64,000 nucleotides of DNA from Escherichia phage vB_EcoM_IME537. The notes below the pieces were generated by a model that saw nothing but the letters and a program-made list of their open reading frames with translations, was not told where the DNA came from and searched no databases. The stretch lies in the sequence record NC_054921.1; one strand, 5' to 3'. Below are positions 3,949 to 60,702 of the stretch, one piece after another. Every line of letters begins with the position of its first letter. The first letter of the stretch is position 1. The translations under genes were made by a program, and so were the position numbers.

Positions 3949-4314
3949 TTAAATATCAAATTCGTTAAGAACTACATCAAAGATTGCTTCAAGATGCTCA
4001 GGTTTAGCTCTGTTACTCAGAATATGACGAATCCAAGTTTTAACCAGAAGCTTGCGATTAACGCCATTCCAGCAAGGATGAGTCCCTAAATCGCGTTGAC
4101 GAAAATCATCATCCAATGCGATTTTAAAAGAAGAACCTTCTTTCGTGATTGAAACCGTGATGCCATTTTCAAATCGCATATAAACGTAGTTAGGAGTCAT
4201 ATACTGTTCAATTTCGCATACTGATCCATTTTGATGTTTCCAAAGGCAGATAGTATCAATAGAACCTGCAATACCGTTAGAAACATATTTACGTTCAAAG
4301 TTGATGTAATTCAT
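3949..4314 (-). CDS. hypothetical protein, 121 aa
   Basis: ORF downstream of early promoter. Confidence 0.55.
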   Translation of the reverse strand: MNYINFERKYVSNGIAGSIDTICLWKHQNGSVCEIEQYMTPNYVYMRFENGITVSITKEGSSFKIALDDDFRQRDLGTHPCWNGVNRKLLVKTWIRHILSNRAKPEHLEAIFDVVLNEFDI

Positions 4315-4339
4315 TTTTATTCTCCGAGATGTTTAATTG

Positions 4340-4380
4340 CGGTACAGGTATATAATATCATATCCTGTACCAAAGTAAAC
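4340..4380 (-). promoter_or_regulatory. T4-type early promoter (GTTTAC -35, TATTAT -10)
   Basis: minus strand GTTTAC-17 nt-TATTAT upstream of ORF 3949..4314. Confidence 0.5.
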
Positions 4381-4384
4381 TATT

Positions 4385-4753
4385 TTATGCAACTTTAATC
4401 CAATTATCTAAATTTAATTCACCTTTGGCTTTCATTTTTTCAATCAAGAGGTCAGCGGTAATACGACCATTTTGATACCACGTAACATCTTCAGAGTAAC
4501 CAGTTTCTTTATCTTCATAAGTCTCACAGCGAATTTTACCAAGAATCAAAGTTTTTAATTCGTATGTATCTCCAGTAAAAAAGTTAGTTAACATTATTTT
4601 CCAAGAGAAATCATCAGAAGGACCTTCAGGAGTCATACAATCTACGAATTCAAATTGTTCTTTATATAAATGCCACTGAAGTTCTTTAGTTTCAATAGCT
4701 TTATAGCCGTCGTGATCTTTACCTTTGATGTATGAGTTAAGATTGATTTTCAT
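4385..4753 (-). CDS. hypothetical protein, 122 aa
   Basis: ORF downstream of early promoter. Confidence 0.55.
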   Translation of the reverse strand: MKINLNSYIKGKDHDGYKAIETKELQWHLYKEQFEFVDCMTPEGPSDDFSWKIMLTNFFTGDTYELKTLILGKIRCETYEDKETGYSEDVTWYQNGRITADLLIEKMKAKGELNLDNWIKVA

Positions 4754-4770
4754 TTTATTCTCCTTTGTTT

Positions 4771-4810
4771 GTGTAAGATAATACTATCACAAAGGAACCA
4801 TACTGTAAAC
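4771..4810 (-). promoter_or_regulatory. T4-type early promoter
   Basis: minus strand GTTTAC ... TAGTATTAT upstream of ORF 4385..4753. Confidence 0.5.
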
Positions 4811-4838
4811 AACTTTGTGCAATCTTTGGAAAATAAAA

Positions 4839-4858
4839 AGGACTCCCGAAGGAGTCCT
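4839..4858 (-). terminator. AGGACUCC-UUCG-GGAGUCCU hairpin
   Basis: 8-bp stem with tetraloop; identical copy at 58850..58869. Confidence 0.45.
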
Positions 4859-4862
4859 TAAC

Positions 4863-5039
4863 TTATGCTTTCTGCTTACCAAAACGAGAAGCATCATCTC
4901 GAAGAACCGCACGTGCTCGGCGCATGATCTTCTCAACAGTTTGATTGATACGAGAGTTCGACCCACGCTTGTAACCAGCGCGTTTAGAATCACCGACTTT
5001 CTTTTCAACTGCTTTCTTTGCTTTAGCTTGTTTTGCCAT
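4863..5039 (-). CDS. small highly basic protein, 58 aa (MAKQAKAKKAVEKK...)
   Basis: ATG at 5039 within track ORF 4863..5081; Lys/Arg-rich; function unknown. Confidence 0.5.
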   Translation of the reverse strand: MAKQAKAKKAVEKKVGDSKRAGYKRGSNSRINQTVEKIMRRARAVLRDDASRFGKQKA

Positions 5040-7534: not shown

Positions 7535-7767
7535 AGTACGCCATACACCCTTTGTGCTTCAACTAATCCATCAAAATCCAATTTAAGATGCGATATTTGA
7601 TCGCCATCACCTGGATTCACAATTACTAATACTGAACGAGGAGTTTCGGTAATAACACGAACCGATGTTTCAGGAAATCGTTCAGAAACCTTATTTACCA
7701 ATTCCTGCGCAAATAGCTTAACTTTTTCTTGGAATTCTTTAACAGTAATCGGTTTTTCACTTAGCAT
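7531..7767 (-). CDS. hypothetical protein, 78 aa
   Basis: ORF. Confidence 0.5.
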   Translation of the reverse strand: MLSEKPITVKEFQEKVKLFAQELVNKVSERFPETSVRVITETPRSVLVIVNPGDGDQISHLKLDFDGLVEAQRVYGVL

Positions 7768-8288
7768 GTTGATCCCAGCTCCTTACTTTCAACGTTTTTA
7801 ACTAATTTGACAGAAACTAATTCAGCATCTTGAGTAATCATTACTGGGCCTTCTTCATACTCTTCAAGATATTCTAGAGCTTTCTTTTTAGCTTCTTCCT
7901 TCGTATCAGTTTGAGCATAGATATAAAACATACAACCAGTAATACCTACTACTTTCCATTTAATTTCTTTATCAGTTTTAATTTCAAATTTACTGACAGA
8001 ATCATCTTTTTGAACTTCTTCGAAAAAAGAATATTCTAACATATAAGCAATTGAAAATAACGGGCTATCTTTATAGGATTCGCCCATTACATCAATAGCT
8101 TTATACCAGCAGTCATCAATTTCGCGTTTAATGCTAATAACATTCTTTGCAGGGTCAATTTTTACTTTAAATGAATTTTCCCCAATAAACTGGGCAATTC
8201 GTTTATTAGCCCCGCAAGTTTCATTAAAAATATCTTTATACCCAGTTTTAAAGCGATAAACCTTATCTTCTTCAAACCATTCGCTCAT
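7761..8288 (-). CDS. hypothetical protein, 175 aa
   Basis: ORF downstream of early promoter. Confidence 0.55.
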   Translation of the reverse strand: MSEWFEEDKVYRFKTGYKDIFNETCGANKRIAQFIGENSFKVKIDPAKNVISIKREIDDCWYKAIDVMGESYKDSPLFSIAYMLEYSFFEEVQKDDSVSKFEIKTDKEIKWKVVGITGCMFYIYAQTDTKEEAKKKALEYLEEYEEGPVMITQDAELVSVKLVKNVESKELGSTC

Positions 8289-11656: not shown

Positions 11657-13244
<1,588 letters not shown>

Positions 13245-13271
13245 AATAAAATGGGCCTTGCGGCCCACTCC

Positions 13272-14441
13272 TTAAAAATATTTTTTAAAACTCATCATAA
13301 CTTTATCATCAACATCATTATCAATCTGTGCTACAAGGTAAGATGACAGTTCTACTTCTTGCGGCGCGGATTGAACATTATCAGAATTAAGGTATTCACG
13401 AATCCAAGGATACGGATGTTTAACCGGAGCATCGGTAATTGGGCATGGAAGACCGCACTGTTTCATACGAGATACAGTTAAGTAATCAATAAAGCTCCAC
13501 ATGCTATTTGTATTTAATCCAGGAACATCGCCATCTTTAAATAAATGAACTGCCCAGTCTTTTTCTTGGCGGTTAACTTCCATGAAAATATCAACTGCTT
13601 CTTGTTCACACTCTTGAGCAATTTTAACCCATTCATCACCATCAGTGCCAAGTTGAAGTTGACGAATAATATATTGGGTGCCTTTAAGATGAAGCTGCTC
13701 ATCACGCGCAATGAACTTCATAATCTTGGCATTACCTTCCATGATTTCCATGTTCTTATGGAAGTTAAAGGTACATGCGAAAGATACGTAAAAACGAATA
13801 GCTTCCAATGCATTGATTACATGCAAGCAGAGGTAAAGAGATTTCATTAATGCTCGTTTAGTACATTCAACAACTTTGCCTAACTCTTCTTTACGAAATC
13901 CTTCTGATAAAATTCCTTCATAATCTTCAACCGCGTTTTGGTATTCACGAGTCTTAACTAGAACATCATCGTAATAGCGACCAATGGACTCGGCACGTTT
14001 CATAATAGCTTTATCTAATACAATCTCATCAAATACCTTTGATGGGTCAGTATAAAGATTTCGCATGATATGAGTATATGAACGACTGTGAATAGTTTCA
14101 CTAAAAGTCCATGTAGCAACCCATGTATCAAGACTTGGATCTGAAATTAATGACATAAGTACTGCAGACGGTGCACGACCCTGAATGCTATCTAGAAGTG
14201 ATTGATACTTCAGGTTATTAGTAAAAATATCTTGCTGATACTGAGGAAGCTTGTTAAATTGTGCAGCATCCATCATTAAGTTTACTTCTTCAGGACGCCA
14301 GAAAAATGATAAAGATTTCTCTGTAAGTTCTTCAAATACTCGATGCCGTTGAATATCATAACGCGCAATACCAAGACCTGAACCAAAAAACATAGGTTCT
14401 TTTAAAACATCAACTGGATTTGTATTAAAAACTGTAGACAT
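13272..14441 (-). CDS. nrdB: ribonucleotide reductase small subunit, uninterrupted (no intron)
   Basis: from MSTVFNTNPVD; continuous ORF. Confidence 0.93.
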   Translation of the reverse strand: MSTVFNTNPVDVLKEPMFFGSGLGIARYDIQRHRVFEELTEKSLSFFWRPEEVNLMMDAAQFNKLPQYQQDIFTNNLKYQSLLDSIQGRAPSAVLMSLISDPSLDTWVATWTFSETIHSRSYTHIMRNLYTDPSKVFDEIVLDKAIMKRAESIGRYYDDVLVKTREYQNAVEDYEGILSEGFRKEELGKVVECTKRALMKSLYLCLHVINALEAIRFYVSFACTFNFHKNMEIMEGNAKIMKFIARDEQLHLKGTQYIIRQLQLGTDGDEWVKIAQECEQEAVDIFMEVNRQEKDWAVHLFKDGDVPGLNTNSMWSFIDYLTVSRMKQCGLPCPITDAPVKHPYPWIREYLNSDNVQSAPQEVELSSYLVAQIDNDVDDKVMMSFKKYF

Positions 14442-15172
14442 TAATTTTTCCTCTTTAAAATTCTGCCGTGTTTCCAACCTGGCGGTATAATATCATCTTT
14501 ACCTATAAGCGTGCATTCACTTCCATTATTAATCCATTTCTTACCGCGGATTCCTTTATAATCTCTTGGTTTTATTTTGTCAAACTTTGCATCAAGTTGA
14601 TATGACCATCTAAATCCATAAGCATATTGAAATTTACCCTCGGCACAATATTTGATATTTGACCCGTTTCCATTAACTGACCGGGACGCTGCCGCAATAG
14701 AGTGAAAGGTTTCTATGAAATCCCCATCTAATGAGAATTTATGTATTTCTACAGATGGGCACGCATATCTATTCACGTTAGATACATGCTGTTTAGTTTC
14801 GTTTTTATGATGCTTGCCTAGCATCCCTTTAGGATGAGGATTATTTTTCCAATATTTCTTAAAGAACTCAGAATTAGCTTTAGCAAATAATTTTCTGTGT
14901 AAGCTGTACAATCTGTTATTAATTCTATTGCCAGCTTTATCTGTTGCCATTAACGTTAACGCAGAGGCAAGACCAAAATGGCCTTCATTTATCTTACATA
15001 GTAATAGATGAGCTATAAAATGTTCTCTGGCTGTTAATTCAACTAAATTTTCCTTATCATCAGAACCTCCCATACATTTAGGGATTATATGATGTGTCTC
15101 TTTATATTCTAGTAAAGATTCCCGAGCCTGAGCTCGGGAAATTAGGTCGTTATAGATTTTTTGATAATTCAT
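14441..15172 (-). CDS. HNH homing endonuclease (Mob family) between nrdA and nrdB
   Basis: 243 aa; N-terminal HNH core HHIIPKCMGGSDDKENLVELTAREHFIAH; same position as T4 mobE. Confidence 0.8.
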   Translation of the reverse strand: MNYQKIYNDLISRAQARESLLEYKETHHIIPKCMGGSDDKENLVELTAREHFIAHLLLCKINEGHFGLASALTLMATDKAGNRINNRLYSLHRKLFAKANSEFFKKYWKNNPHPKGMLGKHHKNETKQHVSNVNRYACPSVEIHKFSLDGDFIETFHSIAAASRSVNGNGSNIKYCAEGKFQYAYGFRWSYQLDAKFDKIKPRDYKGIRGKKWINNGSECTLIGKDDIIPPGWKHGRILKRKN

Positions 15173-16161
15173 TACAATTTACACGCTGCGCAATCATCGG
15201 CTTTTGGAGTTTCTATTTCATAATCATCAGTACCGGAACCATCACGAGTATTATGATAATAGAAGTTTTTAATGCCATAATACCATCCGTATAGCATGTC
15301 ATCAATCATTACAGACATTGGAACTTTTCCTTTTGGAAAAATCTGCGGGTCATAATATGTATTTGCTGAAGCTGATTGACATACCCATTTCAGCATAATA
15401 GCTACTTGCGTAAGATAAGGTTTATTACCTTTTTTAGCTAATTTCCACGTATAATCATACAGGTCTATGTTATGCTCAATATTGGGCACGACTTGATTAA
15501 AGGAGCCCTCTTTTGATTCTTTAACAGAGACTGGTCCACGTGGAGGCTCGATACCGTTTGTACTGTTAGAAACTTGGGAAGATGACTCACATGGCATAAG
15601 TGCTGATAATGTGCTATTACGGATGCCAAAGAGCTTAAGGTCTTCCCGCAGCGACGACCAGTCACAAACGTATTTTGGAGCTGCGATTTGGTCAATCTTT
15701 TTATTGTACCAGTCGATAGGTAATTCGCCTCGAGACCAACGGGTGTCTGAATAATATTCGCAAGGTCCTTTTTCTTTGGCGAGCTTAATGGATGCTTTAA
15801 TGAGTCCATACTGTAATCTCTCAAATAGTTCATGTGTTAAATCGTTAGCATCTTCATAAGAAGCAAAATTACTTGCCAGCCAAGCTGCATAGTTAGTAAC
15901 ACCTACGCCAAGGTTTCGACGCTTTTTAGCTTTTTCTGCTTCAGGAACTGGATATCCTTGGTAATCCAAAAGATTATCAAGAGCACGAACTTGGACTTCT
16001 GCCAATTCATTAATTTTATCTTGGTCTTGCCAATCGAAGTTATCTAACACAAATGCAGATAACGTGCAGAGGCCCACTTCACCTTTGTTTTCAATAACTT
16101 GTATTGTTGTATACTCATCATCTTCGTAAAATTCATCTACAAATTCATAATCAATATTCAT
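15172..16161 (-). CDS. nrdA: ribonucleotide reductase large subunit, C-terminal fragment
   Basis: 329 aa; ENKGEVGLCTLSAF aligns with E. coli NrdA ENGEIALCTLSAF; C-terminal CAACKL tail; ATG overlaps stop of the inserted HNH ORF. Confidence 0.85.
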   Translation of the reverse strand: MNIDYEFVDEFYEDDEYTTIQVIENKGEVGLCTLSAFVLDNFDWQDQDKINELAEVQVRALDNLLDYQGYPVPEAEKAKKRRNLGVGVTNYAAWLASNFASYEDANDLTHELFERLQYGLIKASIKLAKEKGPCEYYSDTRWSRGELPIDWYNKKIDQIAAPKYVCDWSSLREDLKLFGIRNSTLSALMPCESSSQVSNSTNGIEPPRGPVSVKESKEGSFNQVVPNIEHNIDLYDYTWKLAKKGNKPYLTQVAIMLKWVCQSASANTYYDPQIFPKGKVPMSVMIDDMLYGWYYGIKNFYYHNTRDGSGTDDYEIETPKADDCAACKL

Positions 16162-16861
16162 TTAATTCTTCTACCTTTTTTCGAGATATTCCTAGAGCTT
16201 TAGATGCTCGATGTATTGATTGATATTCTATACCGTTTATTTTTACAGCAATTAAGTTATGGGGTTTTAATCCCTTTGGATGAGGTTTACTGACGTATTC
16301 TTGATTATCGTTTTCAGAGATATTATCAAGCTTTCGACACTTAAAGCCTTTATGTTGAGACCTTTTGCCTTTGCATACGGCCGACATTGCCGAAGCATTG
16401 AGTGAATGTAGTTCGCAAAATTCTCTTAGGCCTTTATGGATTTCTTCATGACCGTCCGGGAAAGTAAATACCCAAGTTGTTTGAAGTTTTTCTCTATGCT
16501 CGTCAGTTACCGGAATACCTTTGTTCCAAGCTGGTTTGCCTTTATTATTTTCAGATACAGAAATAGCCAATTTTCTTCTAAGCCACCCATGGCGTTTATT
16601 GGTGTTCTTTCGTTCAATATTATCTTCAGAATAAACACACATCATATTAGCGGCAAATACCAATTTATGATTATCTGGATATATCTTTACTAATAATTGA
16701 TGAGCTATGTAATGCTCTTCGGGTGTCAAATCTACCAGGTTTTCCTTTGTATCAGAACCACCAATACACAGAGGTATAATATGGTGTGATTCGGTATAGC
16801 AATCTAATTTTCTGTTCTTAGCTTTAGAAATAAGGTTATTGTAAATTTTAGAATAATCCAT
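16151..16861 (-). CDS. HNH homing endonuclease inserted inside nrdA
   Basis: 236 aa; HNH core HHIIPLCIGGSDTKENLVDLTPEEHYIAH; own SD AAGAGGAAAA; C-terminal helix-turn-helix-like region. Confidence 0.85.
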   Translation of the reverse strand: MDYSKIYNNLISKAKNRKLDCYTESHHIIPLCIGGSDTKENLVDLTPEEHYIAHQLLVKIYPDNHKLVFAANMMCVYSEDNIERKNTNKRHGWLRRKLAISVSENNKGKPAWNKGIPVTDEHREKLQTTWVFTFPDGHEEIHKGLREFCELHSLNASAMSAVCKGKRSQHKGFKCRKLDNISENDNQEYVSKPHPKGLKPHNLIAVKINGIEYQSIHRASKALGISRKKVEELNEY

Positions 16862-16906
16862 AACTTTTCCTCTTGTTATGGATTATTTATTAACGGTCTG
16901 TGTACT

Positions 16907-18340
16907 TTATTTGCTTTGAATTATACCGCCAGGATTAGCTTCATAAAACTTAGCTACATCCGACTTCTTAATTTTGATTAAACGGGTTTGTTGGCTATTG
17001 ACATCATTAGTTGGAATAGCAATTTCACAACACAAGTTGCTCTGACGAATAGGTGCCTTTTCGCGAATAAACGGAGTATAGTTATTCGTATTATCAATGA
17101 ACTGCACATAAATCCTTGCTGTTCCTGATCGTTCAGTCATGAGCAATTCAAACAGTTCACGGGCTTTAATACGCTTTTTACGAATATTAGGGTCTTTTTC
17201 TGCGGCTTCATATAATTCACGGAAACGGTCTTGGTCTTTAAAATAAGAATAATAAAGCTCGCCACCCATTTCGTGTGGACTGAACAAAGTAATGTAGTCG
17301 TTCTTTCCGAATCGTTCCATCATTAGGTCATTCAGCTGGACACCATAATCCATATGGCGGATACGGTTTTCTTCTACACCTTTGTTATTTTTCAAAACGA
17401 GAAGATTTTCAACTTCCAAATGCCAAATAGGATAATAAGCAGTAGCAGCACCGCCACGAATTCCGCCCTGTGAACATGATTTAACAGCAGTCTGAAAATG
17501 TTTCCAAAAAGGAATAACACCAGTATGGCGTACTTCACCTGTGCCAATCTTAGAACCTTCGGCACGAATCATACCAACGTTAATGCCGATTCCAGCTCGC
17601 TTGGAGATATATTCAACAATTGAAGCAGAAGCTTTGTTGATAGACTTCAGCGAATCACCTGCCTCAATAACAACGCATGAACTAAACTGTCGAGTTGGAG
17701 TACGACATCCAGCCATAATAGGAGTTGGCAATGAAATCTGTCGAGTGGATACTGCTTCATAAAAACGGATAACGTGTTTTAATCTATCAACAGGTTCATC
17801 TTGATGCAATGCCATTCCAATAGTCATAAACGCAAACTGTGGAGTTTCATAAATTTGACCAGTGGTTTTATCTTTAACGAGATATTTTTCTTTTAATTGC
17901 ATCGCCCCGGAATAAGTAAATTCCATATCCCGCTCATGCTTAATTTTTGATTCTAAAAATGTAATTTCTTCTGCTGAATATTTTGACAGCAGTTCAGGGT
18001 CATATTTACCTTCATTTACACAGTAAGAAATATGGTCAATAAATGAACATGGTTCATATTGCCCGTAAACATGCTTACGAAGAGCAAACATTAAACACCG
18101 TGCAGCTACATATTGATAATCAGGCTCTTCAACTGAAATAGAATTCGCAGCAGCCTTAATGACAATAGTCTGAATGTCATCAGTTGTCATTCCATCACGG
18201 AGATATGATTTAATATTTTCATATAATTCATAAGGATCTACAGATGTTCCTTCAGCTGCCCAAGATAAAACTTTAATAATTTTTTGCGGGTCAAAGCTTT
18301 GAGAAACACCACTACTTTTGATAACATTAATTAATTGCAT
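16907..18340 (-). CDS. nrdA: ribonucleotide reductase large subunit, N-terminal fragment
   Basis: 477 aa; NrdA N-terminus through SNLCCEIAIPTNDVNS, then 28 unrelated residues and TAA. Confidence 0.85.
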   Translation of the reverse strand: MQLINVIKSSGVSQSFDPQKIIKVLSWAAEGTSVDPYELYENIKSYLRDGMTTDDIQTIVIKAAANSISVEEPDYQYVAARCLMFALRKHVYGQYEPCSFIDHISYCVNEGKYDPELLSKYSAEEITFLESKIKHERDMEFTYSGAMQLKEKYLVKDKTTGQIYETPQFAFMTIGMALHQDEPVDRLKHVIRFYEAVSTRQISLPTPIMAGCRTPTRQFSSCVVIEAGDSLKSINKASASIVEYISKRAGIGINVGMIRAEGSKIGTGEVRHTGVIPFWKHFQTAVKSCSQGGIRGGAATAYYPIWHLEVENLLVLKNNKGVEENRIRHMDYGVQLNDLMMERFGKNDYITLFSPHEMGGELYYSYFKDQDRFRELYEAAEKDPNIRKKRIKARELFELLMTERSGTARIYVQFIDNTNNYTPFIREKAPIRQSNLCCEIAIPTNDVNSQQTRLIKIKKSDVAKFYEANPGGIIQSK

Positions 18341-18612
18341 AAGTCCTCAACTTGAAAATCGTCTTTAAACAATCGGTTAACTATATGAGCTATTATATCA
18401 CCATGACACGGCTTTGGTTTACATGTGCATCCTAGCCTCATTCCACGTAAAGGCTCTAAATGTGCTTTAGTTATTTCTCCGGATTTAATTCGACGTATAA
18501 AATCTTTTTTGAATAATTCAATGGCAGCCTCCCGGCTGCCAGCATCTTTACCGACGTAATTTCCCCAAAATGTACCACGGTGAATATTAACATCAAAGTC
18601 GGATTTATATTT
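18331..18612 (-). pseudogene. DUF4326-like reading frame (93 codons) with no ATG/GTG/TTG start, following an in-frame TAA
   Basis: minus-frame translation KYKSDFDVNIHRGTFWGNYVGKD...LRGMRLGCTCKPKPCHGDIIAHIV; ends overlapping nrdA start. Confidence 0.5.
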
Positions 18613-18876
18613 TTATTCACTACTTGGCATAGACGGCCCGCGCGGTGATAATTCGTCATATTGTTTTTCCGTTAAAACAGTAATATCATAGTAACAATCA
18701 GAAGAAGTTTTAACCGTAGAAATTTTATTATCAAAATACTCACGAGTCATTTTATGAGTATAATATTTTTTGCCATAAATGATAATAGGCTGATTTGGTC
18801 CTGGAACTTCTAACTCGCTTGGGTTAGGAAGTGTAAAAAGAACTACACCAGAAGTATCTTTAAATCGTAAAATCAT
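18613..18876 (-). CDS. hypothetical protein, 87 aa, in frame with downstream DUF4326-like segment
   Basis: ORF; TAA at 18613..18615 separates it from the DUF4326-like frame. Confidence 0.5.
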
Positions 18877-18899
18877 ATATCCTCACAATTAATAATTAA

Positions 18900-19759
18900 T
18901 TACACCGCCATTTTTCCTTTAATAGGAGGGTGTGATTCGTAACCTTTAAGAACGAAATCTTTAGGCCTGAGTTTAAGAACATATTCCAATTGTTCTTTAG
19001 TAGAAAGATAGCGGAATTTATAAGGCAATCCGCCTATTACCAGTTCACAAAGCTCTTTAGGTTCACGACGTAAAATTTCTTTACACTGTTCTATGTGATT
19101 CATATAGATATGAGTATTACCACCAGAAAATATCAAATCTCCTGGAATAAGATTACACATCTTAGCTACAATATGAACTAATGCAGCATATGATGCAATG
19201 TTGAATGGCAAGCCCAAGAACACGTCAACACTTCTTTGATACCACTGCAAATCCAAATAGCCATTACGCACATTAAACTGATAAAACATATGACAAGGTG
19301 GTAATGCCATATGTTTAAGTTCAGCTGGATTCCATGCTGAAACAATTTGACGCCTATCATTCGGCAGTTTTTTAATACGATCAATAACTTCTACAATTTG
19401 GTCTACACCGCCAAAATCACGCCACTGTTTTCCATAAATTGGACCAAGTTCACCACTATGATATCCTAAATCTTTTGCTTGATTTTCGTAATTTTCATCC
19501 CAGACTGTTTTGCCTTGAATTAATGAATCATGCTGAATTAATCGTAAATCATTTACGTTAGTACTTCCTGACAAAAACCATATTAGCTCAGCAATACAAG
19601 CTTTCCAGGCGAGCTTCTTAGTCGTTACTGCAGGAAAACCTTTAGTTAAATCCCAGCGTAATTTAGTACCGAACAAAGCAATTGTTCCTGTGCCTGTTCG
19701 GTCATCGGTTTCATAACCGTTTTCCAGGATATCTTTAATTAAAAATTGGTATTGTTTCA

Positions 19760-19760
<1 letters not shown>
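18900..19760 (-). CDS. td: thymidylate synthase, uninterrupted (no intron)
   Basis: 286 aa from MKQYQ; continuous ORF including the PPCH active-site region. Confidence 0.95.
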
Positions 19761-20792
<1,032 letters not shown>

Positions 20793-20803
20793 ATTATCTC
20801 CTA

Positions 20804-21136
20804 TTAAAAAGGATCAGGAACATATCCACTAGCTTTAATCATTTTAACTAATGTTACCATTCCTTTGTTAACTGCTTGTGAGATTTCATCAAAAACTTCA
20901 TCATTAAAAAGTTCTAGCACACCCTTCTGAACTTTTAATTTACAGCCAACAATTTCGTCATCGCCTATAGTAAATTCATTACCGCCAATTCCACCGAAAA
21001 ACTTAATTACCCCAGTTAACTGTCTTCCACGAGAATATGGGTCATGTGATAAAGTAATATGAGTCACCCCAGGTACAGTTTTAAATTGGCAGCGAATGTT
21101 TACTTGGGAAATTCCAGTTACATGAACGTCAGACAT
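20804..21136 (-). CDS. hypothetical protein, 110 aa
   Basis: ORF with SD. Confidence 0.55.
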   Translation of the reverse strand: MSDVHVTGISQVNIRCQFKTVPGVTHITLSHDPYSRGRQLTGVIKFFGGIGGNEFTIGDDEIVGCKLKVQKGVLELFNDEVFDEISQAVNKGMVTLVKMIKASGYVPDPF

Positions 21137-31252: not shown

Positions 31253-34200
31253 ATGGCTACTTTAAAACAAATACAATTTAAAAGAAGCAAAACTGCAGGA
31301 GCACGTCCTGCCGCTTCAGTATTAGCCGAAGGTGAATTGGCTATAAACTTAAAAGACCGCGTACTTTTTACTAAAGATGACCAAGGAAATATTATTGATC
31401 TTGGTTTTGCTAAGGGCGGTAGTATTGACGGGAATGTTATTCATATAGGAAATTATAATCAAACTGGTGATTATACTTTAAATGGCACCTTCACTCAGAC
31501 AGGTAATTTTAATTTAACTGGTATTGCTCGAGTAACTCGCGATATTATTGCCGCCGGGCAGATTATGACTGAGGGCGGAGAACTTATTACAAAAAGTTCA
31601 GGTACAGCGCATGTTCGTTTTTTCGATGGCAATAGCCGCGAACGTGGAATCATTTATGCCCCGGCTAATGATGGTTTAACTACACAAGTACTTAATATCA
31701 GGGTTCAAGATTATGCTGCAGGAAGCGAAAGCACCTATGCATTTTCAGGCAGTGGACTATTTACTTCACCTGAAGTATCAGCATGGAAATCTATTTCGTC
31801 TCCACAAATTCTAACCAACAAAGTCATTACTAATAATAAATCTACGGGCGATTATGACATCTATTCGATGGCAGACAATGTTCCACTGTCTGAAAGCACT
31901 ACTGCTATTAATCATCTACGTGTCATGCGCAATGCAGTTGGTTCTGGTATTTTCCATGAAGTTAAAGATAATGATGGAATAACATGGTATAGTGGAGATG
32001 GATTAGACGCTTATCTTTGGTCATTTACTTGGAGCGGCGGAATTAAATCAAGTCACTCAATTTCCATCGGTTTAACACCCGGATCTAAGGATTACTCAAT
32101 ATTAGGACCGTCTAGTATCGCTTTAGGAGATAATGATACTGGATTTAAATGGCATCAGGACGGATATTATTTCAGCGTTAATAATGGAACAAAAACGTTT
32201 TTATTTAGTCCTAGCGAAACAACTAGCCTAAGAAAATTTGTAGTTGGATATTCTACTAACGGAACCGATTTAACGACTCCTCCAACTGAAAACTACGCTC
32301 TTGCTACTGTCGTGACATATCACGATAATAACGCGGTTGGAGATGGTCAAACTCTTTTAGGATATTACCAAGGCGGTAATTATCATCACTATTTCCGTGG
32401 TAAAGGTACTACAAACATTAATACTCACGGCGGTTTGTTAGTCACTCCTGGTAATATTGACGTTATTGGTGGTTCTGTTAATATTGATGGTCGTAATAAT
32501 TCTTCTACGCTGATGTTTAGAGGTAACACAACTGGTAGCAGTTCAGTTGATAATATGACAATTTCTGTATGGGGTAATACCTTTATTAATCCTAGTGAAG
32601 GCACCCGTAAAAATGTCATGGAAATTTCTGACGCAACTAGTTGGATGAGCTATATTCAACGAACAACTGCAGGTAAAGTCGAATCGGTTATAAATGGCAC
32701 CCAGATTGTTAATGAAAACTTGACAGTAGTAAAAAATGCTACATTTGACGGTACAATCAGCGCAGCCGGTGAAATCGCGACAAATGCTGTAAATGGTCTT
32801 CGCATTTGGAATGCAGATTATGGAGCCATTTTTAGACGTTCAGAAGGCAGTCTTCATATTATTCCTACAGCATTTGGCGAAGGACAGAATGGTGATATCG
32901 GCCCACTTCGTCCATTTAGTATATCTTTAGATACAGGTAAGGTTGTTATTCCTGACTTGGATTTGAGTTATGCTTCTTTTGCAGCAAACGGCTATATTAA
33001 ATTCGGTGGACATGGTGCAGGTGCAGGCGGTTACGATATTCAATATGCACAAGCAGCTCCTGTTTTCCAAGAAATTGATGATGACGCGGTAAGTAAATAT
33101 TATCCTATTGTTAAGCAGAAATTCTTACAAGGAAAAGCTGTTTGGTCTTTAGGTACTGAAATTAATTCCGGGACTTTTGTTTTGCATCATTACAAAGAAG
33201 ACGGGACCCAAGGTCATACATCAAGATTTAATGCTGATGGTACAGTTAATTTCCCTGATAACGTGCAGGTTGGCGGCGGTGAAGCTACTATTGCTCGCAA
33301 TGGTAATATCTTCTCTGATATTTGGAAACCGTTTACTTCTGCTGGTGATACTACAAATATTCGTGATGCTATTGCCTCCCGTGTGTCTAAAGAAGGCGAC
33401 ACGATGACCGGTAGGTTGACTTTATCTGCTGGAAATGATGCCCTTGTTTTAACTGCAGGCGTGGGCGCTTCATCGCACATCCGTAGTGATGTAGGTGGTA
33501 CAAATAATTGGTATATAGGCAAAGGCGGCGGCGATAATGGTCTAGGTTTTTACAGTTACATTACACAAGGCGGTGTATACATAACAAATAACGGCGAAAT
33601 ATCGCTTTCTCCTCAAGGTCAAGGAACATTTAATTTTAATAGAGACCGCCTTCATATAAACGGTACACAATGGGTTGCGCATCAATCTGGCGCCTGGGGC
33701 GACCAATGGGGTTTAGAAGCTCCTATATTTGTAGATTTTGGATCCGTCAGCAATGACTGCTATTATCCTATTATTAAAGGAAAATCTGGTATTACTAACG
33801 AAGGATATTTTTCCGGCGTAGATTTTGGTATGCGACGCATTACTAATACCTGGGCGCAAGGTATTATTCGTGTAGGTAACCAGGAAAATGGCCATGACCC
33901 ACAAGCTATCTATGAATTCCACCACAATGGAGTTATGTATGTTCCTAACATGGTTAAAACTGAAAGATTATCAGCTGGCGGTGGTGACCCTGTATGGGGC
34001 GGCGCGTGTCTTGCTATTGGTGATAATGATACAGGATTAGTTCATGGTGGTGATGGTCGTATTAACATGTTTGCCGATGGTGTTCATATTGCGTCATGGG
34101 GGTCTCAACGTCTGGCACATGAGGGGTTATGGGATTCATACGGTGCTTTTTGGACAGAAGTCGGTAAAGCAATTGTTTCTCATGGGCATCTCGTTCAGGC

Positions 34201-34579
34201 AAATGATAGCTATTCAACGTTTGTCCGTGATGTTTATGTCCGTTCTGATATTCGCGTTAAAAAAGACCTCGTTAAATTTGAAAATGCTTCTCAGAAGCTT
34301 TCTAAAATTAACGGTTACACTTATATGCAGAAGCGAGGCCTAGATGAAGAAGGCAATCAGAAATGGGAACCTAACGCCGGTTTAATTGCTCAAGAAGTTC
34401 AAGCTATTTTACCAGAATTAGTTGAAGGTGACCCTGATGGCGAAGCTTTACTTCGTTTGAACTATAACGGTGTAATTGGTTTAAATACAGCTGCAATCAA
34501 TGAGCATACTGCAGAAATTGCAGAACTTAAATCAGAAATCGAAGAACTTAAAGCATTAGTTAAATCGTTGTTAAAATAA
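31253..34579 (+). CDS. 37: long tail fibre distal subunit gp37 with C-terminal intramolecular-chaperone (S74-like) domain
   Basis: 1108 aa; C-terminal RSDIRVKKD...coiled-coil tail. Confidence 0.93.
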
Positions 34580-34584
34580 TAAGA

Positions 34585-34598
34585 GGGGCTTCGGCCCC
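34585..34598 (+). terminator. GGGGC-UUCG-GCCCC hairpin between genes 37 and 38
   Basis: perfect 5-bp stem with UUCG loop on plus strand. Confidence 0.5.
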
Positions 34599-34610
34599 TT
34601 GGAGGTTTAT

Positions 34611-35387
34611 ATGGCAGTAACAGGACCGTGGGTAGGATCGTCTGCAGTAGTTAATACAGGACAAAATTGGATGGGTGGCGCGGCCCAACGATTAAGAATG
34701 GGCATTCCGTTCTGGATGAGTAATATGATAGGTCGATCTGTTGAAATAATTCACACGCTTGGAGCAGACCATAACTTCAATGGCCAATGGTTCCGAGATA
34801 GATGTTTTGAGGCAGGTAGTGCACCTATAGTGTTTAATATCACTGGAGATTTAGTATCATATTCTAAAGATGTTCCTTTATTCTTCATGTACGGAGATAC
34901 ACCGAATGAATATGTTCAACTGAATATACATGGTGTAACGATGTATGGCCGTGGCGGTAATGGCGGTAGCAATAGTCCTGGCTCAGCTGGGGGTCATTGT
35001 ATTCAAAATGATATTGGTGGGAGACTAAGAATTAATAATGGCGGAGCTATTGCTGGCGGCGGTGGCGGTGGCGGTGGCGGATATTATTCTCCTTTTTCAC
35101 AAATGAGATTGACCTTTGGCGGTGGTGGCGGTCGTCCGTTTGGCGCGCCGGGCGGATCTATTGATATGCAATCAGGAGCAACTGCTGGTACTATTTCTGC
35201 GCCTGGCGCAGGGTCTGTGAACGGTATCTATAGCGGCGGGTCTGGCGGTGAAGTTGGCTCCGCAGGAGGTAGATGCAATATTCGTGGTCAAGGATATGAA
35301 TACGATGGAGGAGCTGCTGGTTATGCTGTTATAGGGTCTGCTCCAACGTGGATAAATGTTGGAGCAATATATGGTCCAAGGGTATAA
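34611..35387 (+). CDS. 38: T2-type receptor-recognising adhesin gp38 (glycine-rich islands)
   Basis: poly-Gly tracts (GGGGGGGGG) between conserved blocks; ATG at 34611 with GGAGG SD (track ORF starts at TTG 34599). Confidence 0.88.
35041..35079 (+). repeat. GGY-codon simple repeat encoding poly-glycine in gp38
   Basis: ggcggcggtggcggtggcggtggcgga. Confidence 0.7.
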
Positions 35388-35418
35388 TTTTGAATAAATA
35401 TCCTTAAAAGGAGGGTCT

Positions 35419-58876: not shown

Positions 58877-59113
58877 TTAACCACCTATTGTTGTAGGCGT
58901 AAACATTGCAGCATTCTTAGTTTTCCAAGTTGCTGCATCGGAAACTACAGTAGAATATGCTGCCTTTTCTGACGGAAAGATTTGATAATGAGAATCCGCG
59001 ATACGGTGTTCATTTGAATATACATCAAATGCTACAGAAACTTCCATACCTTTAACTTCTTTGCCTTCACCCGCTGGATGAGTAAAGGTCTTGATGTTAA
59101 CGAAACCACCCAT
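58877..59113 (-). CDS. soc: small outer capsid protein Soc (divergent)
   Basis: 78 aa; shares VNIKTF, SVAF, YQ.FPSEKAAYSTV with T4 Soc as recalled. Confidence 0.8.
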   Translation of the reverse strand: MGGFVNIKTFTHPAGEGKEVKGMEVSVAFDVYSNEHRIADSHYQIFPSEKAAYSTVVSDAATWKTKNAAMFTPTTIGG

Positions 59114-59152
59114 AATAAACTCCTTTATTGTTTAATTACAAGTGTATTTATA

Positions 59153-59326
59153 TCAATCTTCAATGAAAACTTGTGCCAGGAATTCATGCTCATCTTGAAT
59201 TTGTTTATATAAAGCCATTACAGCATTTATGTTAGAGCTATCTACTTTAAGTTGATAAGCATACCACTCATGTAAATTAATTAAAGCTTTTTGACGTCTA
59301 ATAAATTCTTCTTTGGATATTTTCAT
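59153..59326 (-). CDS. hypothetical protein, 57 aa
   Basis: ATGA overlap with upstream ORF stop. Confidence 0.4.
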   Translation of the reverse strand: MKISKEEFIRRQKALINLHEWYAYQLKVDSSNINAVMALYKQIQDEHEFLAQVFIED

Positions 59327-59532
59327 TTTGAATGCTCTATAATTAATTTTAAGGCTTCTTCACTTACAAAAATTTCATCAGGACCTTCTTCTACAACCCA
59401 ATCAACCCAATCAACCACACGAAGCTGATTAGATAAGAGCTCACATACGAGCTCTTTGTCATAATTTTTAAATAGCTGGTCAATACGTTTCTTGCGGGCT
59501 TTCTTAAGCTGGCGTTTATTTAAACGAGCCAT
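59323..59532 (-). CDS. hypothetical protein, 69 aa
   Basis: ORF coupled to gene 56. Confidence 0.5.
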   Translation of the reverse strand: MARLNKRQLKKARKKRIDQLFKNYDKELVCELLSNQLRVVDWVDWVVEEGPDEIFVSEEALKLIIEHSK

Positions 59533-60050
59533 TAATAACCTCGATCTTGACGTGCGAAGTTTTCAGCATTTTTCAGATAATAAAGTTTAAAGATTTCTTC
59601 AGCTGTAAGACCAAGACCTTGGAACATGTTCAGAACGAAATGAAGAATATCAATCATTTCGAATTTAATTTCCAACTGGTCTTGTGGAGACAAATCAGTA
59701 ATTAGAGTTTCACGACGTTCACCATGTTGAGCTTTCCAAGGCTTCCATACAGCAGATGCATCTTTTTCGCCATTGCTCATACCGCCAAGAGATGTCAGAA
59801 GTTCACGGAATTCATCGTCAATATAATCTTTCTGATTACGCAGCCAATCAACAACTTCACCTGCAGTAGCCAAATCATCAGGATGACGGTTATATTCAGG
59901 TTTATCTTTAGCTAAACGAACCTGTAAAGATTTCTGCATATCAAGCATAACCTGCAGCGGGTCTTTTTCGTCACCGAGAATATCCCAGTATTCATTTTGA
60001 GCTTTATCAGCGCCTTCGATCAGTTGACTACATTCGTTGAAATGTGGCAT
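59532..60050 (-). CDS. 56: dCTP pyrophosphatase (dCTPase)
   Basis: 172 aa; position between soc and dam as in T4; sequence identity not checked residue-by-residue. Confidence 0.85.
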   Translation of the reverse strand: MPHFNECSQLIEGADKAQNEYWDILGDEKDPLQVMLDMQKSLQVRLAKDKPEYNRHPDDLATAGEVVDWLRNQKDYIDDEFRELLTSLGGMSNGEKDASAVWKPWKAQHGERRETLITDLSPQDQLEIKFEMIDILHFVLNMFQGLGLTAEEIFKLYYLKNAENFARQDRGY

Positions 60051-60051
60051 G

Positions 60052-60702
60052 TTATTTTTCCTTTCTTATGAAGTTTTCTATCATATGTCTATAGCAGATA
60101 TTAGGATAACCTGCCTTGACAGCTATTTTATTAAATTTTGTGCGCTTAGGTCTATTATTATAAACCCATAATTCATAAAGCGCATCATAACTATTCCATA
60201 TTTCTCCTCGCCTAGGATTTGGTAAACCATATCGAGGTGAATTTTTACCGCTAAATCTTCCTTTTCGGGCTTTACTCATATTAGCCTTGGCTTCATCGGA
60301 TATAATTTTACCTTTATGAGCTAGACGCATTTTGGCTTTAGTTTCTTCTGGGGTCTTTTTGCCTTTAATCCATGACGGCTTGCCATATCTAGGATTATTT
60401 TCACCCGAGAAAAGAACAGAGTTTTGGATTTTAAGGGTTTCTATTAATCTACTTGTTAATTTAACACCTTTATTATATCGCATTAAATTTACAGCATAAT
60501 GCAATCCTCTCACATCTGGATATATTTTAGTTAATAATCTATGAGCTATAAAATGCTCACGAGCAGTTAACTCAACAAGATTGTTTTTGTCATCTGCTCC
60601 TCCCATACATCTAGGAATTATATGATGGCGTTCTTTATATCCGCCAAGATGCCGGCATTTAGCTTTTGTAATTAAAGCCGAGTAAATTTTTTGGTAATTC
60701 AC
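60052..60702 (-). CDS. HNH homing endonuclease (Mob family) between 56 and dam
   Basis: 216 aa; HNH core HHIIPRCMGGADDKNNLVELTAREHFIAH; N-terminus nearly identical to ORF 14441..15172. Confidence 0.8.
   Translation of the reverse strand: MNYQKIYSALITKAKCRHLGGYKERHHIIPRCMGGADDKNNLVELTAREHFIAHRLLTKIYPDVRGLHYAVNLMRYNKGVKLTSRLIETLKIQNSVLFSGENNPRYGKPSWIKGKKTPEETKAKMRLAHKGKIISDEAKANMSKARKGRFSGKNSPRYGLPNPRRGEIWNSYDALYELWVYNNRPKRTKFNKIAVKAGYPNICYRHMIENFIRKEK

What the first reader, a model, noticed from the sequence alone, without database searches (positions are those of the whole stretch)
14441..16861. Three paralogous Mob-type HNH endonuclease genes in one window, two of them flanking and splitting nrdA
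ORFs 14441..15172, 16151..16861 and 60052..60702 share an N-terminal HNH domain (YxKIY..LI..A..R...HHIIP.C.GG.D.K.NLV.LT..EH.IAH). Two of them (14441..15172 and 60052..60702) are almost identical over the first 55 residues, then diverge, which suggests recent duplication or domain swapping. One occupies the nrdA/nrdB gap, one is inside nrdA, and one is between 56 and dam. The classic T4 homing endonuclease sites in this window (td and nrdB introns, 32/59 and 56/soc gaps, the 39/60 split) are all empty here.
Basis: partly seen in the sequence, partly recalled or inferred. Interest (0 to 1): 0.5.

Follow-up and report, generated by a model that had tools for sequence, protein, structure and literature searches.

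The report
Three HNH homing endonucleases; split nrdA
This T4-like phage carries three selfish "homing" nuclease genes, one of which cuts the ribonucleotide reductase gene nrdA in two and supplies short peptide tails that probably hold the halves together; this arrangement is already known from phage Aeh1, and near-identical gene copies are annotated in dozens of coliphage genomes.

Summary
Three intact minus-strand ORFs share a Mob-type N-terminal HNH domain and have different C-terminal DNA-binding modules. They are A (14441-15172), B (16151-16861) and C (60052-60702).

- **A** fills the nrdA/nrdB gap. It is the RB3-type variant of T4 MobE.
- **B** splits nrdA into nrdA-a and nrdA-b.
- **C** sits between the ribosome-binding site and the ATG of gene 56, downstream of dam.

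One detail is wrong. A and C are only 64% identical over their first 55 residues. The near-identical pair is A and T4 MobE (3 differences in 55), which then diverge abruptly.

B is a full-length homologue of Aeh1 MobE (47.6% identity, E 4.5e-60). It lies at the same nrdA position and has homologous basic and acidic tails, a re-coded copy of the target codons and a hairpin over its start codon. Homologues in six metagenomic lineages all sit in a split nrdA with the same tail motifs.

The B cassette (936 bp) and the A tract (965 bp) have no mismatches to other phages, while their flanks differ by up to about 7%. That indicates recent horizontal spread.

Each gene is already in 33-55 GenBank phage records. 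Only the A+B pairing is unseen among isolates, and analogous double occupancy occurs in metagenomes. This is a known kind of element, of low to moderate interest.

The parts
14441..15172 (-). Gene A: an RB3-type MobE HNH homing endonuclease (243 aa) that fills the whole nrdA/nrdB gap. Its ATG overlaps the nrdA-b stop codon, and its own stop codon overlaps the nrdB ATG.
   Evidence: ORF. Pfam NUMOD1 (E 1.1e-5) and HNH (E 9e-4). phrog_655 at E 4.6e-57. The first 55 aa match T4 MobE except at 3 positions, then the two diverge. The unique 560 bp is 96-100% identical in 53 phage records, including RB3, where it is annotated 'mobE'.
15119..15140 (-). Terminator-like hairpin inside the 5' end of A (UUCCCGAGCUCAGGCUCGGGAA). 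It corresponds to the internal intrinsic terminator described for T4 mobE.
   Evidence: Found by the scan. The sequence is identical in T4 mobE and in the L025 MobE, with a fold energy of about -19 kcal/mol. The T4 mobE internal terminator is described in PMC2790892.
14347..15311 (-). A 965-bp tract with no mismatches to phage G50. It covers A plus 94 bp of the nrdB 5' end and 140 bp of the nrdA 3' end, and is inferred to be a co-conversion tract.
   Evidence: Mismatch positions. PEC04 and SH-2, which lack A, differ at 16 of 100 positions in 15200-15299.
14313..14346 (-). Hypervariable patch in nrdB codons 32-43. It is the region where T4 MobE nicks T2 nrdB (codon 42). The window allele is partly T4-like and has AAA at codon 42.
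   Evidence: 13 mismatches to G50 and SH7 in 34 bp. The nick site and the polymorphic nucleotides 114-131 are described in PMC2790892.
16064..16999 (-). The nrdA-splitting cassette: C-terminal tail codons, stop, 45-nt spacer with hairpin, gene B, N-terminal tail codons, and five re-coded nrdA codons. It replaces 21 bp of the uninterrupted allele (CCT GAT GCT GAA ATT GGA TTG).
   Evidence: Junctions. No mismatches to PEC04 across the 936 bp, against up to 7 mismatches per 100 bp in the flanks. GC content is 34.2%, against 37.6% and 39.0% in the nrdA cores.
16151..16861 (-). Gene B: an Aeh1-MobE-type HNH homing endonuclease (236 aa).
   Evidence: 47.6% identity over 229 aa to Aeh1 MobE, E 4.5e-60. 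100% identical to the HY01 protein, and 33 records are at least 80% identical. Pfam I-HmuI NUMOD-like at E 8e-8. The AlphaFold model has pLDDT 88.9 and its best PDB match is I-HmuI 1u3e (E 3.9e-5, probability 1.0). dN/dS is 0.17-0.20.
16852..16887 (-). A 13-bp RNA hairpin that buries the AUG of B and leaves the Shine-Dalgarno sequence in the loop. Its 5' arm overlaps a late-promoter-like AATAAATA motif 30 nt upstream of the ATG.
   Evidence: Fold energy -19.2 kcal/mol, z = -4.06, matched by 0 of 200 shuffles. Aeh1 has an analogous hairpin at the same place, z = -3.43. Motif position. The Aeh1 mechanism is described in PMC2988022.
16907..18340 (-). nrdA-a (477 aa): NrdA residues 1-449 plus a 28-aa basic C-terminal tail (QQTRLIKIKKSDVAKFYEANPGGIIQSK, net charge +4).
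   Evidence: Pfam ATP-cone, Ribonuc_red_lgN and the first half of Ribonuc_red_lgC. 99.3% identity to T4 NrdA residues 1-449. The tail motif LxK[IV][KR]Kx[DE][VI]xxF is conserved in 8 lineages.
15172..16161 (-). nrdA-b (329 aa): a 26-aa acidic N-terminal tail (MNIDYEFVDEFYEDDEYTTIQVIENK, net charge -8) followed by NrdA residues 452-754. Its start codon overlaps the 3' end of B by 11 nt.
   Evidence: Pfam Ribonuc_red_lgC profile positions 219-523. 98% identity to T4 NrdA residues 452-754. ED[DE]EYTT is invariant in 8 lineages.
60052..60702 (-). Gene C: an HNH plus NUMOD3 homing endonuclease (216 aa, GTG start). It is inserted exactly between the gene 56 Shine-Dalgarno sequence and the gene 56 ATG, and its 3' end supplies a new Shine-Dalgarno sequence for gene 56.
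   Evidence: ORF. Pfam NUMOD3 at E 8e-7. phrog_655 at E 3e-60. Pure insertion relative to T4. At least 36 phage records carry it at the same site, at 95-99% identity in the listed records.

Best explanation
The window is the early region of a Tequatrovirus (T4-like coliphage). It carries three independently acquired Mob-type HNH homing endonuclease genes.

**B: the nrdA-splitting cassette**
B belongs to a 936-bp mobile cassette of the Aeh1 mobE type. The steps below are inferred from Aeh1, T4 MobE and I-HmuI; none was tested here.
1. Late in infection the nuclease is translated. On early and middle transcripts a hairpin hides its AUG. A late-promoter-like motif lies inside the 5' arm of the hairpin, so late transcripts could not form it.
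2. In a mixed infection, B nicks the uninterrupted nrdA of a relative. The target is at or near the 21 bp that encode the loop between the two barrel strands carrying the active-site cysteines (E. coli Cys439 and Cys462).
3. Recombinational repair copies the cassette into that genome.

What the sequence shows directly is how the cassette makes the split harmless:
- It adds a basic tail to NrdA-a and an acidic tail to NrdA-b. In Aeh1 these tails are essential for ribonucleotide reductase activity.
- It re-codes five nrdA codons (GEVGL). This restores the barrel strand and destroys the target sequence, which would give self-immunity.

**A: the RB3-type MobE**
A has the T4 MobE HNH domain, and the same internal terminator hairpin, fused to a different NUMOD1-type DNA-binding half. 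By analogy with T4 MobE it should nick nrdB, or a nearby site, in phages that lack it. Flanking nrdA and nrdB sequence would be carried along with it.

**C: the gene 56 insertion**
C has taken over the translation-initiation site of gene 56 and is transcribed from the gene 56 promoter. Its target is unknown; I infer it lies in gene 56 or dam of phages that lack C.
For: **Shown by tool results or directly by the sequence**
- Three intact ORFs carry the HNH motif. All belong to one PHROG family and have different DNA-binding modules.
- B is homologous to Aeh1 MobE along its full length, and the layout matches. The spacer is 45 nt here and 46 nt in Aeh1. The overlap with nrdA-b is 11 nt here and 14 nt in Aeh1. 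The tails are homologous.
- The split falls between the codons for Cys439 and Cys462, as in Aeh1.
- The target codons are re-coded: GCT GAA ATT GGA TTG becomes GGT GAA GTG GGC CTC.
- The tail motifs and the insertion site are conserved in 8 lineages. These are the window, Aeh1 and the metagenomic loci L021, L022, L023, L026, L027 and L028.
- B has an I-HmuI-like fold.
- B is under purifying selection.
- The cassettes are identical to copies in other phages while the flanks differ. B has 0 mismatches in 936 bp and A has 0 in 965 bp, against up to about 7% in the flanks.
- All three genes are present in some and absent from other phages that are more than 95% identical.
- Both B and Aeh1 mobE have a hairpin over the start region. 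A carries the T4 mobE terminator hairpin.

**From the literature**
- The Aeh1 tails are essential for enzyme activity (PMC3045599).
- T4 MobE nicks T2 nrdB at codon 42 and drives its own inheritance (PMC2790892).
- Hairpin plus late-promoter control of Aeh1 mobE (PMC2988022).
Against: - No cleavage, homing or enzyme activity can be tested with these tools.
- A's DNA-binding half differs from that of T4 MobE, so its target need not be the T4 MobE site. G50 and SH7, which carry A, have the T2-like AAG at nrdB codon 42.
- The late-promoter-like motif upstream of B matches the consensus TATAAATA at only 7 of 8 positions.
- The hairpin is invariant among the Tequatrovirus copies, so there is no covariation to support it.
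- Across the 5 lineages compared, MobE divergence follows NrdA divergence. Between genera the cassette may therefore be old and vertically inherited rather than actively moving.
- The Pfam HNH hits are below the gathering score (17.9-19.7 bits against 21.4).
Confidence: 0.85

Rival explanations
1. The genes are immobile relics. The B cassette is an ancient, fixed, domesticated feature kept only because nrdA-b expression and NrdA assembly now depend on it. A and C are decaying passengers that no longer cut DNA.
For: MobE divergence between the 5 lineages compared follows NrdA divergence, which is compatible with long vertical co-inheritance. The tails are more conserved than the nuclease. T4's own mobE appears as two ORFs, mobE plus nrdB.1, where relatives have one 213-aa ORF. 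This shows that Mob genes do decay.
Against: Within Tequatrovirus the cassette is present in about 33 records and absent from hundreds that are more than 95% identical. Its 936 bp are identical to PEC04, while the flanks differ by up to 7 mismatches per 100 bp starting at the cassette edges. All three ORFs are full length with intact HNH residues, and B has dN/dS of 0.17-0.20.
Confidence: 0.1
2. The A+B arrangement is an assembly chimera of two co-occurring phages, one carrying A (G50-like) and one carrying B (HY01-like).
For: No isolate genome in the phage collection carries A and B together; the best coverage of the 4.1-kb query is 82%. The A tract is identical to G50 and the B cassette is identical to PEC04.
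Against: The 750 bp between the two tracts (15312-16063), and the sequence outside them, carry variants not found in any of the four Tequatrovirus isolate genomes aligned (for example 15325, 15433, 15460 and 15742). The backbone is therefore its own lineage and not a join of the two supposed parents. Double occupancy recurs independently: L022 and L025 carry a B-type gene plus a T4-type MobE, L028 has another gene in the gap, and F26 carries B plus a 522-aa endonuclease.
Confidence: 0.03
3. The HNH proteins serve the phage mainly as weapons against co-infecting relatives (marker exclusion) or as regulators. Copying of the gene is only a by-product.
For: Homing endonuclease sites coincide with the regions of strongest exclusion of T2 markers in T4 x T2 crosses (PMC2790892). 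Wilson and Edgell could not exclude that MobE acts as a regulator of another nuclease.
Against: This view uses the same molecular mechanism, so sequence cannot separate it from homing. The gene-sized tracts identical between phages show that the genes themselves are what spreads.
Confidence: 0.02

Closest known systems
Aeromonas phage Aeh1 mobE / nrdA-a / nrdA-b ('genes-in-pieces' ribonucleotide reductase; Friedrich et al. 2007; Crona et al. 2010, PMC3045599)
   Same: - B is a full-length homologue of Aeh1 MobE (47.6% identity).
- The insertion point is the same, between the strands that carry Cys439 and Cys462.
- The gene order, spacer length and overlap with nrdA-b match.
- The basic C-terminal tail and acidic N-terminal tail are homologous (LIKIKKSDVAKF against LFKVKKSEVDKF; EFYEDDEYTT against EVYEDEEYTT).
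- Both have a hairpin over the translation start of the endonuclease gene.
   Different: - The host genus and nrdA background differ. NrdA is only 52-59% identical, and here nrdA is in the T4 position next to td, whereas in Aeh1 it lies near nrdD.
- The hairpin sequesters the AUG here and the Shine-Dalgarno sequence in Aeh1.
- Within Tequatrovirus the cassette is polymorphic and identical between diverged genomes, so it looks recently mobile.
- Nothing has been tested biochemically for this copy.
T4 MobE (nrdA/nrdB gap; Wilson and Edgell 2009, PMC2790892) and its RB3 variant
   Same: - A occupies the same gap.
- The first 55 residues match except at 3 positions.
- The internal terminator hairpin is identical.
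- A is 96% identical over its unique 560 bp to the gene annotated mobE in RB3.
   Different: - After residue about 56, A has an unrelated C-terminal half (NUMOD1 type), so its recognition site may differ from the T4 MobE site in nrdB.
- T4's copy is annotated as two ORFs, mobE (141 aa) and nrdB.1 (83 aa).
T4 mobA element splitting topoisomerase gene 39/60 (bioRxiv 10.1101/2022.08.31.505936)
   Same: It follows the same design. An HNH gene is flanked by a C-terminal extension for the upstream fragment and an N-terminal extension for the downstream fragment. The N-terminal extension includes a re-coded 'homologous region' that replaces the deleted target.
   Different: The target gene is different. 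The B cassette has no translational bypass element. The mobA site itself is unoccupied in this window.
I-HmuI (PDB 1u3e), an intron-encoded HNH nicking endonuclease of Bacillus phage SPO1
   Same: It is the best structural match to the B model and has the same order of modules: HNH, NUMOD-like, then helix-turn-helix.
   Different: I-HmuI lies inside a group I intron. B is free-standing and there is no intron RNA here: Rfam finds nothing relevant. Sequence identity is about 20%.

Membership tests
Mob-type free-standing HNH homing endonucleases of T4-like phages | Conserved N-terminal HNH nuclease motif (HH...N...H) that is intact | tested here: met
   The residues are invariant in all three proteins. 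B aligns to the McrA HNH domain. All three hit phrog_655 at E 1e-57 to 1e-60. The Pfam HNH hits are sub-threshold only.
Mob-type free-standing HNH homing endonucleases of T4-like phages | A protein-specific C-terminal DNA-binding half | tested here: met
   NUMOD1 in A, I-HmuI NUMOD-like plus an I-TevI-type DNA-binding region in B, and NUMOD3 in C. There is no similarity between the three beyond about residue 130.
Mob-type free-standing HNH homing endonucleases of T4-like phages | An optional gene that is present or absent at a fixed site among close relatives, next to or inside a conserved gene | tested here: met
Mob-type free-standing HNH homing endonucleases of T4-like phages | Site-specific nicking or cleavage of the endonuclease-lacking allele, and preferential inheritance in crosses | not testable with these tools
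   The only indirect support is the gene-sized tracts identical to other phages inside diverged flanks.
Aeh1-type nrdA-splitting mobE cassette | An endonuclease homologous to Aeh1 MobE along its whole length | tested here: met
   47.6% identity over 229 of 236 aa, E 4.5e-60. In the phage collection, the closest full-length relatives of Aeh1 MobE are exactly this Tequatrovirus group.
Aeh1-type nrdA-splitting mobE cassette | nrdA split between the barrel strands that carry Cys439 and Cys462 (E. coli numbering) | tested here: met
   NrdA-a ends ...NLCCEIAIPTNDVNS plus the tail. NrdA-b resumes at GEVGLCTLSAF.
Aeh1-type nrdA-splitting mobE cassette | A basic C-terminal tail on NrdA-a and an acidic N-terminal tail on NrdA-b | tested here: met
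   Net charges are +4 and -8. The tails are homologous to those of Aeh1 and of six metagenomic lineages.
Aeh1-type nrdA-splitting mobE cassette | Translation of the endonuclease restricted by an RNA hairpin, with a late promoter inside it | tested here: inconclusive
   The hairpin is predicted with z = -4.06. The promoter-like motif matches at only 7 of 8 positions. There is no covariation among the Tequatrovirus copies.
Aeh1-type nrdA-splitting mobE cassette | The split enzyme is active and depends on the tails | not testable with these tools
   Known only for Aeh1 (PMC3045599).
Intein or group I intron (the other ways a homing endonuclease sits inside a gene) | An in-frame protein-splicing domain, or a self-splicing RNA around the endonuclease gene | tested here: not met
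   nrdA-a ends in a stop codon. A 45-nt spacer and a separate ORF follow. No Rfam intron match at E up to 1 in 12500-20500.

The most novel reading that the evidence does not exclude
The basic and acidic tail pair is a portable, strongly conserved 'molecular zipper' that has travelled with this HNH gene through at least eight T4-like lineages (ED[DE]EYTT invariant; LxK[IV][KR]Kx[DE][VI]xxF). It is more constrained than the nuclease itself. The cassette would then be a third general solution, beside introns and inteins, for inserting into an essential gene. Tequatrovirus would offer a tractable E. coli system where it is still actively homing. When B and a MobE-type gene both flank nrdA-b, as here and in L022 and L025, the two nucleases might jointly drive that whole segment as one homing island.
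Probability: 0.35. Interest if true: 0.5.

Novelty: already known. Interest (0 to 1): 0.25.

Why it matters
The general phenomenon is established. T4-like phages are full of Mob and Seg endonucleases, and a mobE that splits nrdA was worked out biochemically in Aeh1. A 2022 preprint already remarks that 'several other' phages have similar insertions with conserved tails.

This window adds three modest points:
- The Aeh1-type cassette, with tails, re-coded target and regulatory hairpin, exists in ordinary E. coli T4-like phages, where crosses and genetics are easy.
- Sequence identity patterns indicate that it is still spreading there.
- The tail motifs are conserved across many lineages, which supports the idea that they are functional assembly domains.

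These points would help anyone who wants to test how tails rescue a split enzyme. They do not change current understanding.

Tried and rejected
- **A and C as a recent duplication:** rejected. They are 64% identical in the core and 50% overall, and each has orthologues at its own site in other phages.
- **Intein or intron reading of the nrdA interruption:** rejected.
- **Further homing endonucleases in the window:** I searched the other insertions relative to T4 (7766-8286, 19761-19963, 20563-21080, 59058-59532, 61628-62165). None is a homing endonuclease.
- **IMG/VR scan with B:** it found only N-terminal HNH matches and no close cassette. The peptide-pattern method probably missed them.
- **NCBIfam:** no useful hits for B or C.
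- **Locating nrdA in Aeh1:** three wrong 27-45 kb stretches came first before the right one.
- **Sandegren et al. 2005 (PMC1275590)**, on mobE replacement, is not held in the library.
- **Literature on a Tequatrovirus split nrdA:** the search found nothing beyond the preprint remark.
- **Model of the NrdA-a/NrdA-b complex:** not attempted.
- **Covariation test of the B hairpin:** not possible. The five Tequatrovirus copies compared are identical there.

Full report
**Context**

The window aligns collinearly with phage T4 from about 125.5 kb, through the genome end, to about 19.5 kb, at roughly 92-97% identity. The early genes are on the minus strand (using T4 loci). It is therefore a Tequatrovirus. 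Hundreds of Escherichia, Shigella and Yersinia phage records match the nrd region.

**The observation**

Three minus-strand ORFs are present at the stated coordinates:
- A: 14441-15172, 243 aa.
- B: 16151-16861, 236 aa.
- C: 60052-60702, 216 aa, with a GTG start.

Their N-terminal 100-130 residues align, and the quoted motif is invariant. Pairwise BLASTP gives E 1e-23 to 1e-30. All three belong to phrog_655 'homing endonuclease' at E 1e-57 to 1e-60.

The C-terminal halves are unrelated to each other:
- A has NUMOD1.
- B has an I-HmuI NUMOD-like domain plus a weak match to the I-TevI DNA-binding region.
- C has NUMOD3.

The Pfam HNH hits are just below the gathering score. B nevertheless aligns to the HNH core of McrA. 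An AlphaFold model of B (mean pLDDT 88.9) has I-HmuI (1u3e) as its only significant PDB match (E 3.9e-5, probability 1.0).

A and C are not 'almost identical' over the first 55 residues; they share about 64%. The near-identical pair is A and T4 MobE. They differ at 3 of the first 55 residues, and the DNA lies in a 95%-identical match up to window 15003. All similarity ends there.

**Positions and the 'empty' classic sites**

- A fills the nrdA/nrdB gap.
- B lies between two nrdA fragments, nrdA-a (16907-18340) and nrdA-b (15172-16161).
- C lies between dam (60762-61541) and gene 56 (59532-60050).

Relative to T4, the td intron with I-TevI, the nrdB intron with I-TevIII, segG, segF and the mobA/60.1 segment are all absent. 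Gene 39 is a single 606-aa ORF. The soc/56 gap is not literally empty: it holds two small ORFs.

**What B is**

Phage Aeh1 has the only experimentally studied split nrdA. There, mobE separates nrdA-a from nrdA-b between the barrel strands that carry Cys439 and Cys462. Unique basic and acidic tails on the two fragments are essential for enzyme activity (PMC3045599).

I located the Aeh1 locus and compared it with the window:
- B is 47.6% identical to Aeh1 MobE over 229 residues (E 4.5e-60).
- The gene lengths match closely: 477/236/329 aa here and 473/237/323 aa in Aeh1.
- The spacer is 45 nt here and 46 nt in Aeh1.
- The overlap with nrdA-b is 11 nt here and 14 nt in Aeh1.
- The tails are recognisably homologous: LIKIKKSDVAKF against LFKVKKSEVDKF, and EFYEDDEYTTIQVIE against EVYEDEEYTTVEIEV.
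- The tail charges are +4 and -8, matching the Aeh1 pattern.

Codon-level comparison with the uninterrupted allele of SH7 and T4 defines the insertion. The 21 bp CCT GAT GCT GAA ATT GGA TTG are replaced by a cassette. Its 3' end re-codes five codons: GGT GAA GTG GGC CTC, encoding GEVGL in place of AEIGL. The barrel strand is thus restored and the sequence at the insertion site is changed. I infer that this gives immunity to self-cleavage. It parallels the 'homologous region' described for the mobA element (bioRxiv 10.1101/2022.08.31.505936).

**Regulation**

The 45-nt spacer and the first codons of B fold into a 13-bp hairpin that buries the AUG (-19.2 kcal/mol, z = -4.06). Aeh1 has a different-sequence hairpin at the same place (z = -3.43).

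In Aeh1 this hairpin, together with an embedded late promoter, restricts translation to late infection (PMC2988022). Here the 5' arm overlaps AATAAATA, a 7-of-8 match to the T4 late-promoter consensus TATAAATA, 30 nt upstream of the ATG. I treat the late-promoter step as inferred.

A contains the hairpin UUCCCGAGCUCAGGCUCGGGAA 32 nt into its ORF. It is identical in T4 mobE, and it matches the internal intrinsic terminator that limits T4 mobE transcripts (PMC2790892).

C sits just downstream of the gene 56 promoter region. It uses the former gene 56 Shine-Dalgarno sequence with a GTG start, and its last codons supply a new Shine-Dalgarno sequence for gene 56.

**Evidence for mobility**

I aligned 12800-19900 with five reference genomes.
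- The B cassette (16064-16999, 936 bp) has no mismatch to PEC04 and one to SH-2. The flanking nrdA differs by 2-9 mismatches per 100 bp from every reference, beginning right at the cassette edges.
- At the 3' junction, the first flanking codons are SH7-like in the window (ACG TTA) and T4-like in PEC04. The same cassette therefore sits in different nrdA backgrounds.
- A similar tract of 965 bp (14347-15311) has no mismatch to G50. It covers A, 94 bp of nrdB and 140 bp of the nrdA 3' end. In that nrdA stretch, phages that lack A differ at 16 of 100 positions.
- Given that flank divergence, tracts of this length without a single mismatch are very unlikely to arise by chance (my estimate).
- C is also more conserved than its neighbours (0-2 against 2-7 mismatches per 100 bp), but the contrast is weaker.

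B is under purifying selection between its two Tequatrovirus subtypes (dN/dS 0.17-0.20). Its central 65 codons are saturated at synonymous sites while the ends are nearly identical. This points to an internal swap of the DNA-binding module.

**Distribution**

| Gene | Records in the phage collection | Source |
|---|---|---|
| A (unique 560 bp) | 53 of 55 matching records cover at least 80% of it at 95-100%, including RB3 where it is annotated mobE | |
| B | 33 at 80% protein identity or more, 12 of them at 99% or more (HY01 is 100% identical) | |
| C | at least 36, at the same site | |

- No record carries A and B together; the best coverage of the 4.1-kb query is 82%.
- A+C occurs in G50. B+C occurs in fPS-2 and RPN226.
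- A Logan contig encodes exactly this NrdA-b protein. There it is followed by a 213-aa T4-type MobE instead of A.
- The metagenomic locus L022 has the same double occupancy. The arrangement is therefore not unique in kind.
- The nrdA/nrdB gap is a hot spot with at least six alternative states.

**Breadth of the nrdA-splitting cassette**

A search of the large protein collection with B returned a graded series of full-length homologues at 51-89% identity. I looked up the genomic context of six of them. All six lie in a split nrdA of a T4-like contig.

In all eight lineages the split is at the same place and the tails carry the same motifs:
- C-terminal tail on NrdA-a: LxK[IV][KR]Kx[DE][VI]xxF.
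- N-terminal tail on NrdA-b: ED[DE]EYTT, invariant.

In the phage collection, the closest full-length relatives of Aeh1 MobE are exactly the Tequatrovirus B group. Among the 5 lineages compared, MobE divergence follows NrdA divergence. The cassette may therefore be old between genera and still move within a genus.

**Comparison with what is known, and novelty**

- B is a member of the Aeh1-type mobE cassette family. Every sequence-level defining feature I could test is met.
- A is the RB3-type MobE.
- C is an annotated but unstudied Mob-type gene.
- I found no paper that describes the Tequatrovirus case explicitly.

The finding is therefore a correct recognition of known elements. Its added value is small: the A+B combination, the mobility signature, and the cross-lineage tail motifs.

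**Verdict**

- Best explanation: three independently acquired, probably active, Mob-type HNH homing endonuclease genes, one of them an Aeh1-type nrdA-splitting cassette (confidence about 0.85).
- Novelty: already known.
- Interest: 0.25.

Noticed in passing
window 61541-62101 (-): A 186-aa ORF (phrog_8706, function unknown) is a pure insertion between dam and gene 61 relative to T4, and overlaps the dam start. It has a sub-threshold Pfam hit to the DpnII (GATC) restriction endonuclease (E 0.0045) and sits next to the GATC Dam methyltransferase. ELT1 and T4 lack it. G4498 lacks both it and dam.
   Followed up: partly
window 13800-13999 (nrdB): A hypervariable stretch of nrdB with indels lies just 5' of the nrdB intron insertion point. 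The window matches SH-2 (4-6 mismatches per 100 bp) but differs by 22-38 per 100 bp from PEC04, SH7, G50 and T4.
   Followed up: no
window 14313-14346 (nrdB codons 32-43): The nrdB segment around the mapped T4 MobE nick site is a distinct allele here. Its first half is T4-like (CAT CGA GTA TTT GAA GAA CT), followed by ACA GAG AAA TCT, which none of the five aligned references has. Other phages that carry A have the T2-like allele.
   Followed up: partly
L004 (T4) 4217-4917; L022 5669-6310; L025 1065-1706: T4's annotated mobE (141 aa) and nrdB.1 (83 aa) together correspond to a single 213-aa MobE ORF in two metagenomic relatives. The T4 reference copy therefore looks frameshifted.
   Followed up: partly
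window 16300-16500 (central part of B); L003, L005: B exists in two Tequatrovirus subtypes. They are nearly identical at both ends, but the central 65 codons (the NUMOD-like domain) are saturated at synonymous sites (34 of 40). This suggests an internal module swap.
   Followed up: partly
nrdA/nrdB gap in L001, L003, L005, L028: The gap that A occupies has many alternative states. It is empty in PEC04, holds a Dam-like methyltransferase in 236Ecol005PP, a 522-aa endonuclease in F26, and a 258-aa protein of unknown function in L028.
   Followed up: no
window 59153-59532 (-): Two small ORFs (57 and 69 aa; phrog_9053, and phrog_5782 'virion structural protein') occupy the soc/56 gap where T4 has segF. 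Gene 56 itself is only about 75% identical to the T4 gene.
   Followed up: no
window 19760-19966 (-) and 20547-21136 (-): Extra small genes relative to T4: a 68-aa ORF between td and frd (phrog_9550), shared with SH7 but not the other references, and an insertion of about 520 bp after frd that encodes an 81-aa ORF and a DUF7247 protein.
   Followed up: no
window 18900-19099 (3' end of td): The 3' end of td differs by 25-42 mismatches per 100 bp from four Tequatrovirus references, but by only 10-12 from T4. This is another sharply mosaic patch next to a classic homing site.
   Followed up: no
window 31419-35394: There is no nucleotide similarity to T4 across the distal tail-fibre region (genes 37/38). 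This is presumably a different host-range cassette.
   Followed up: no
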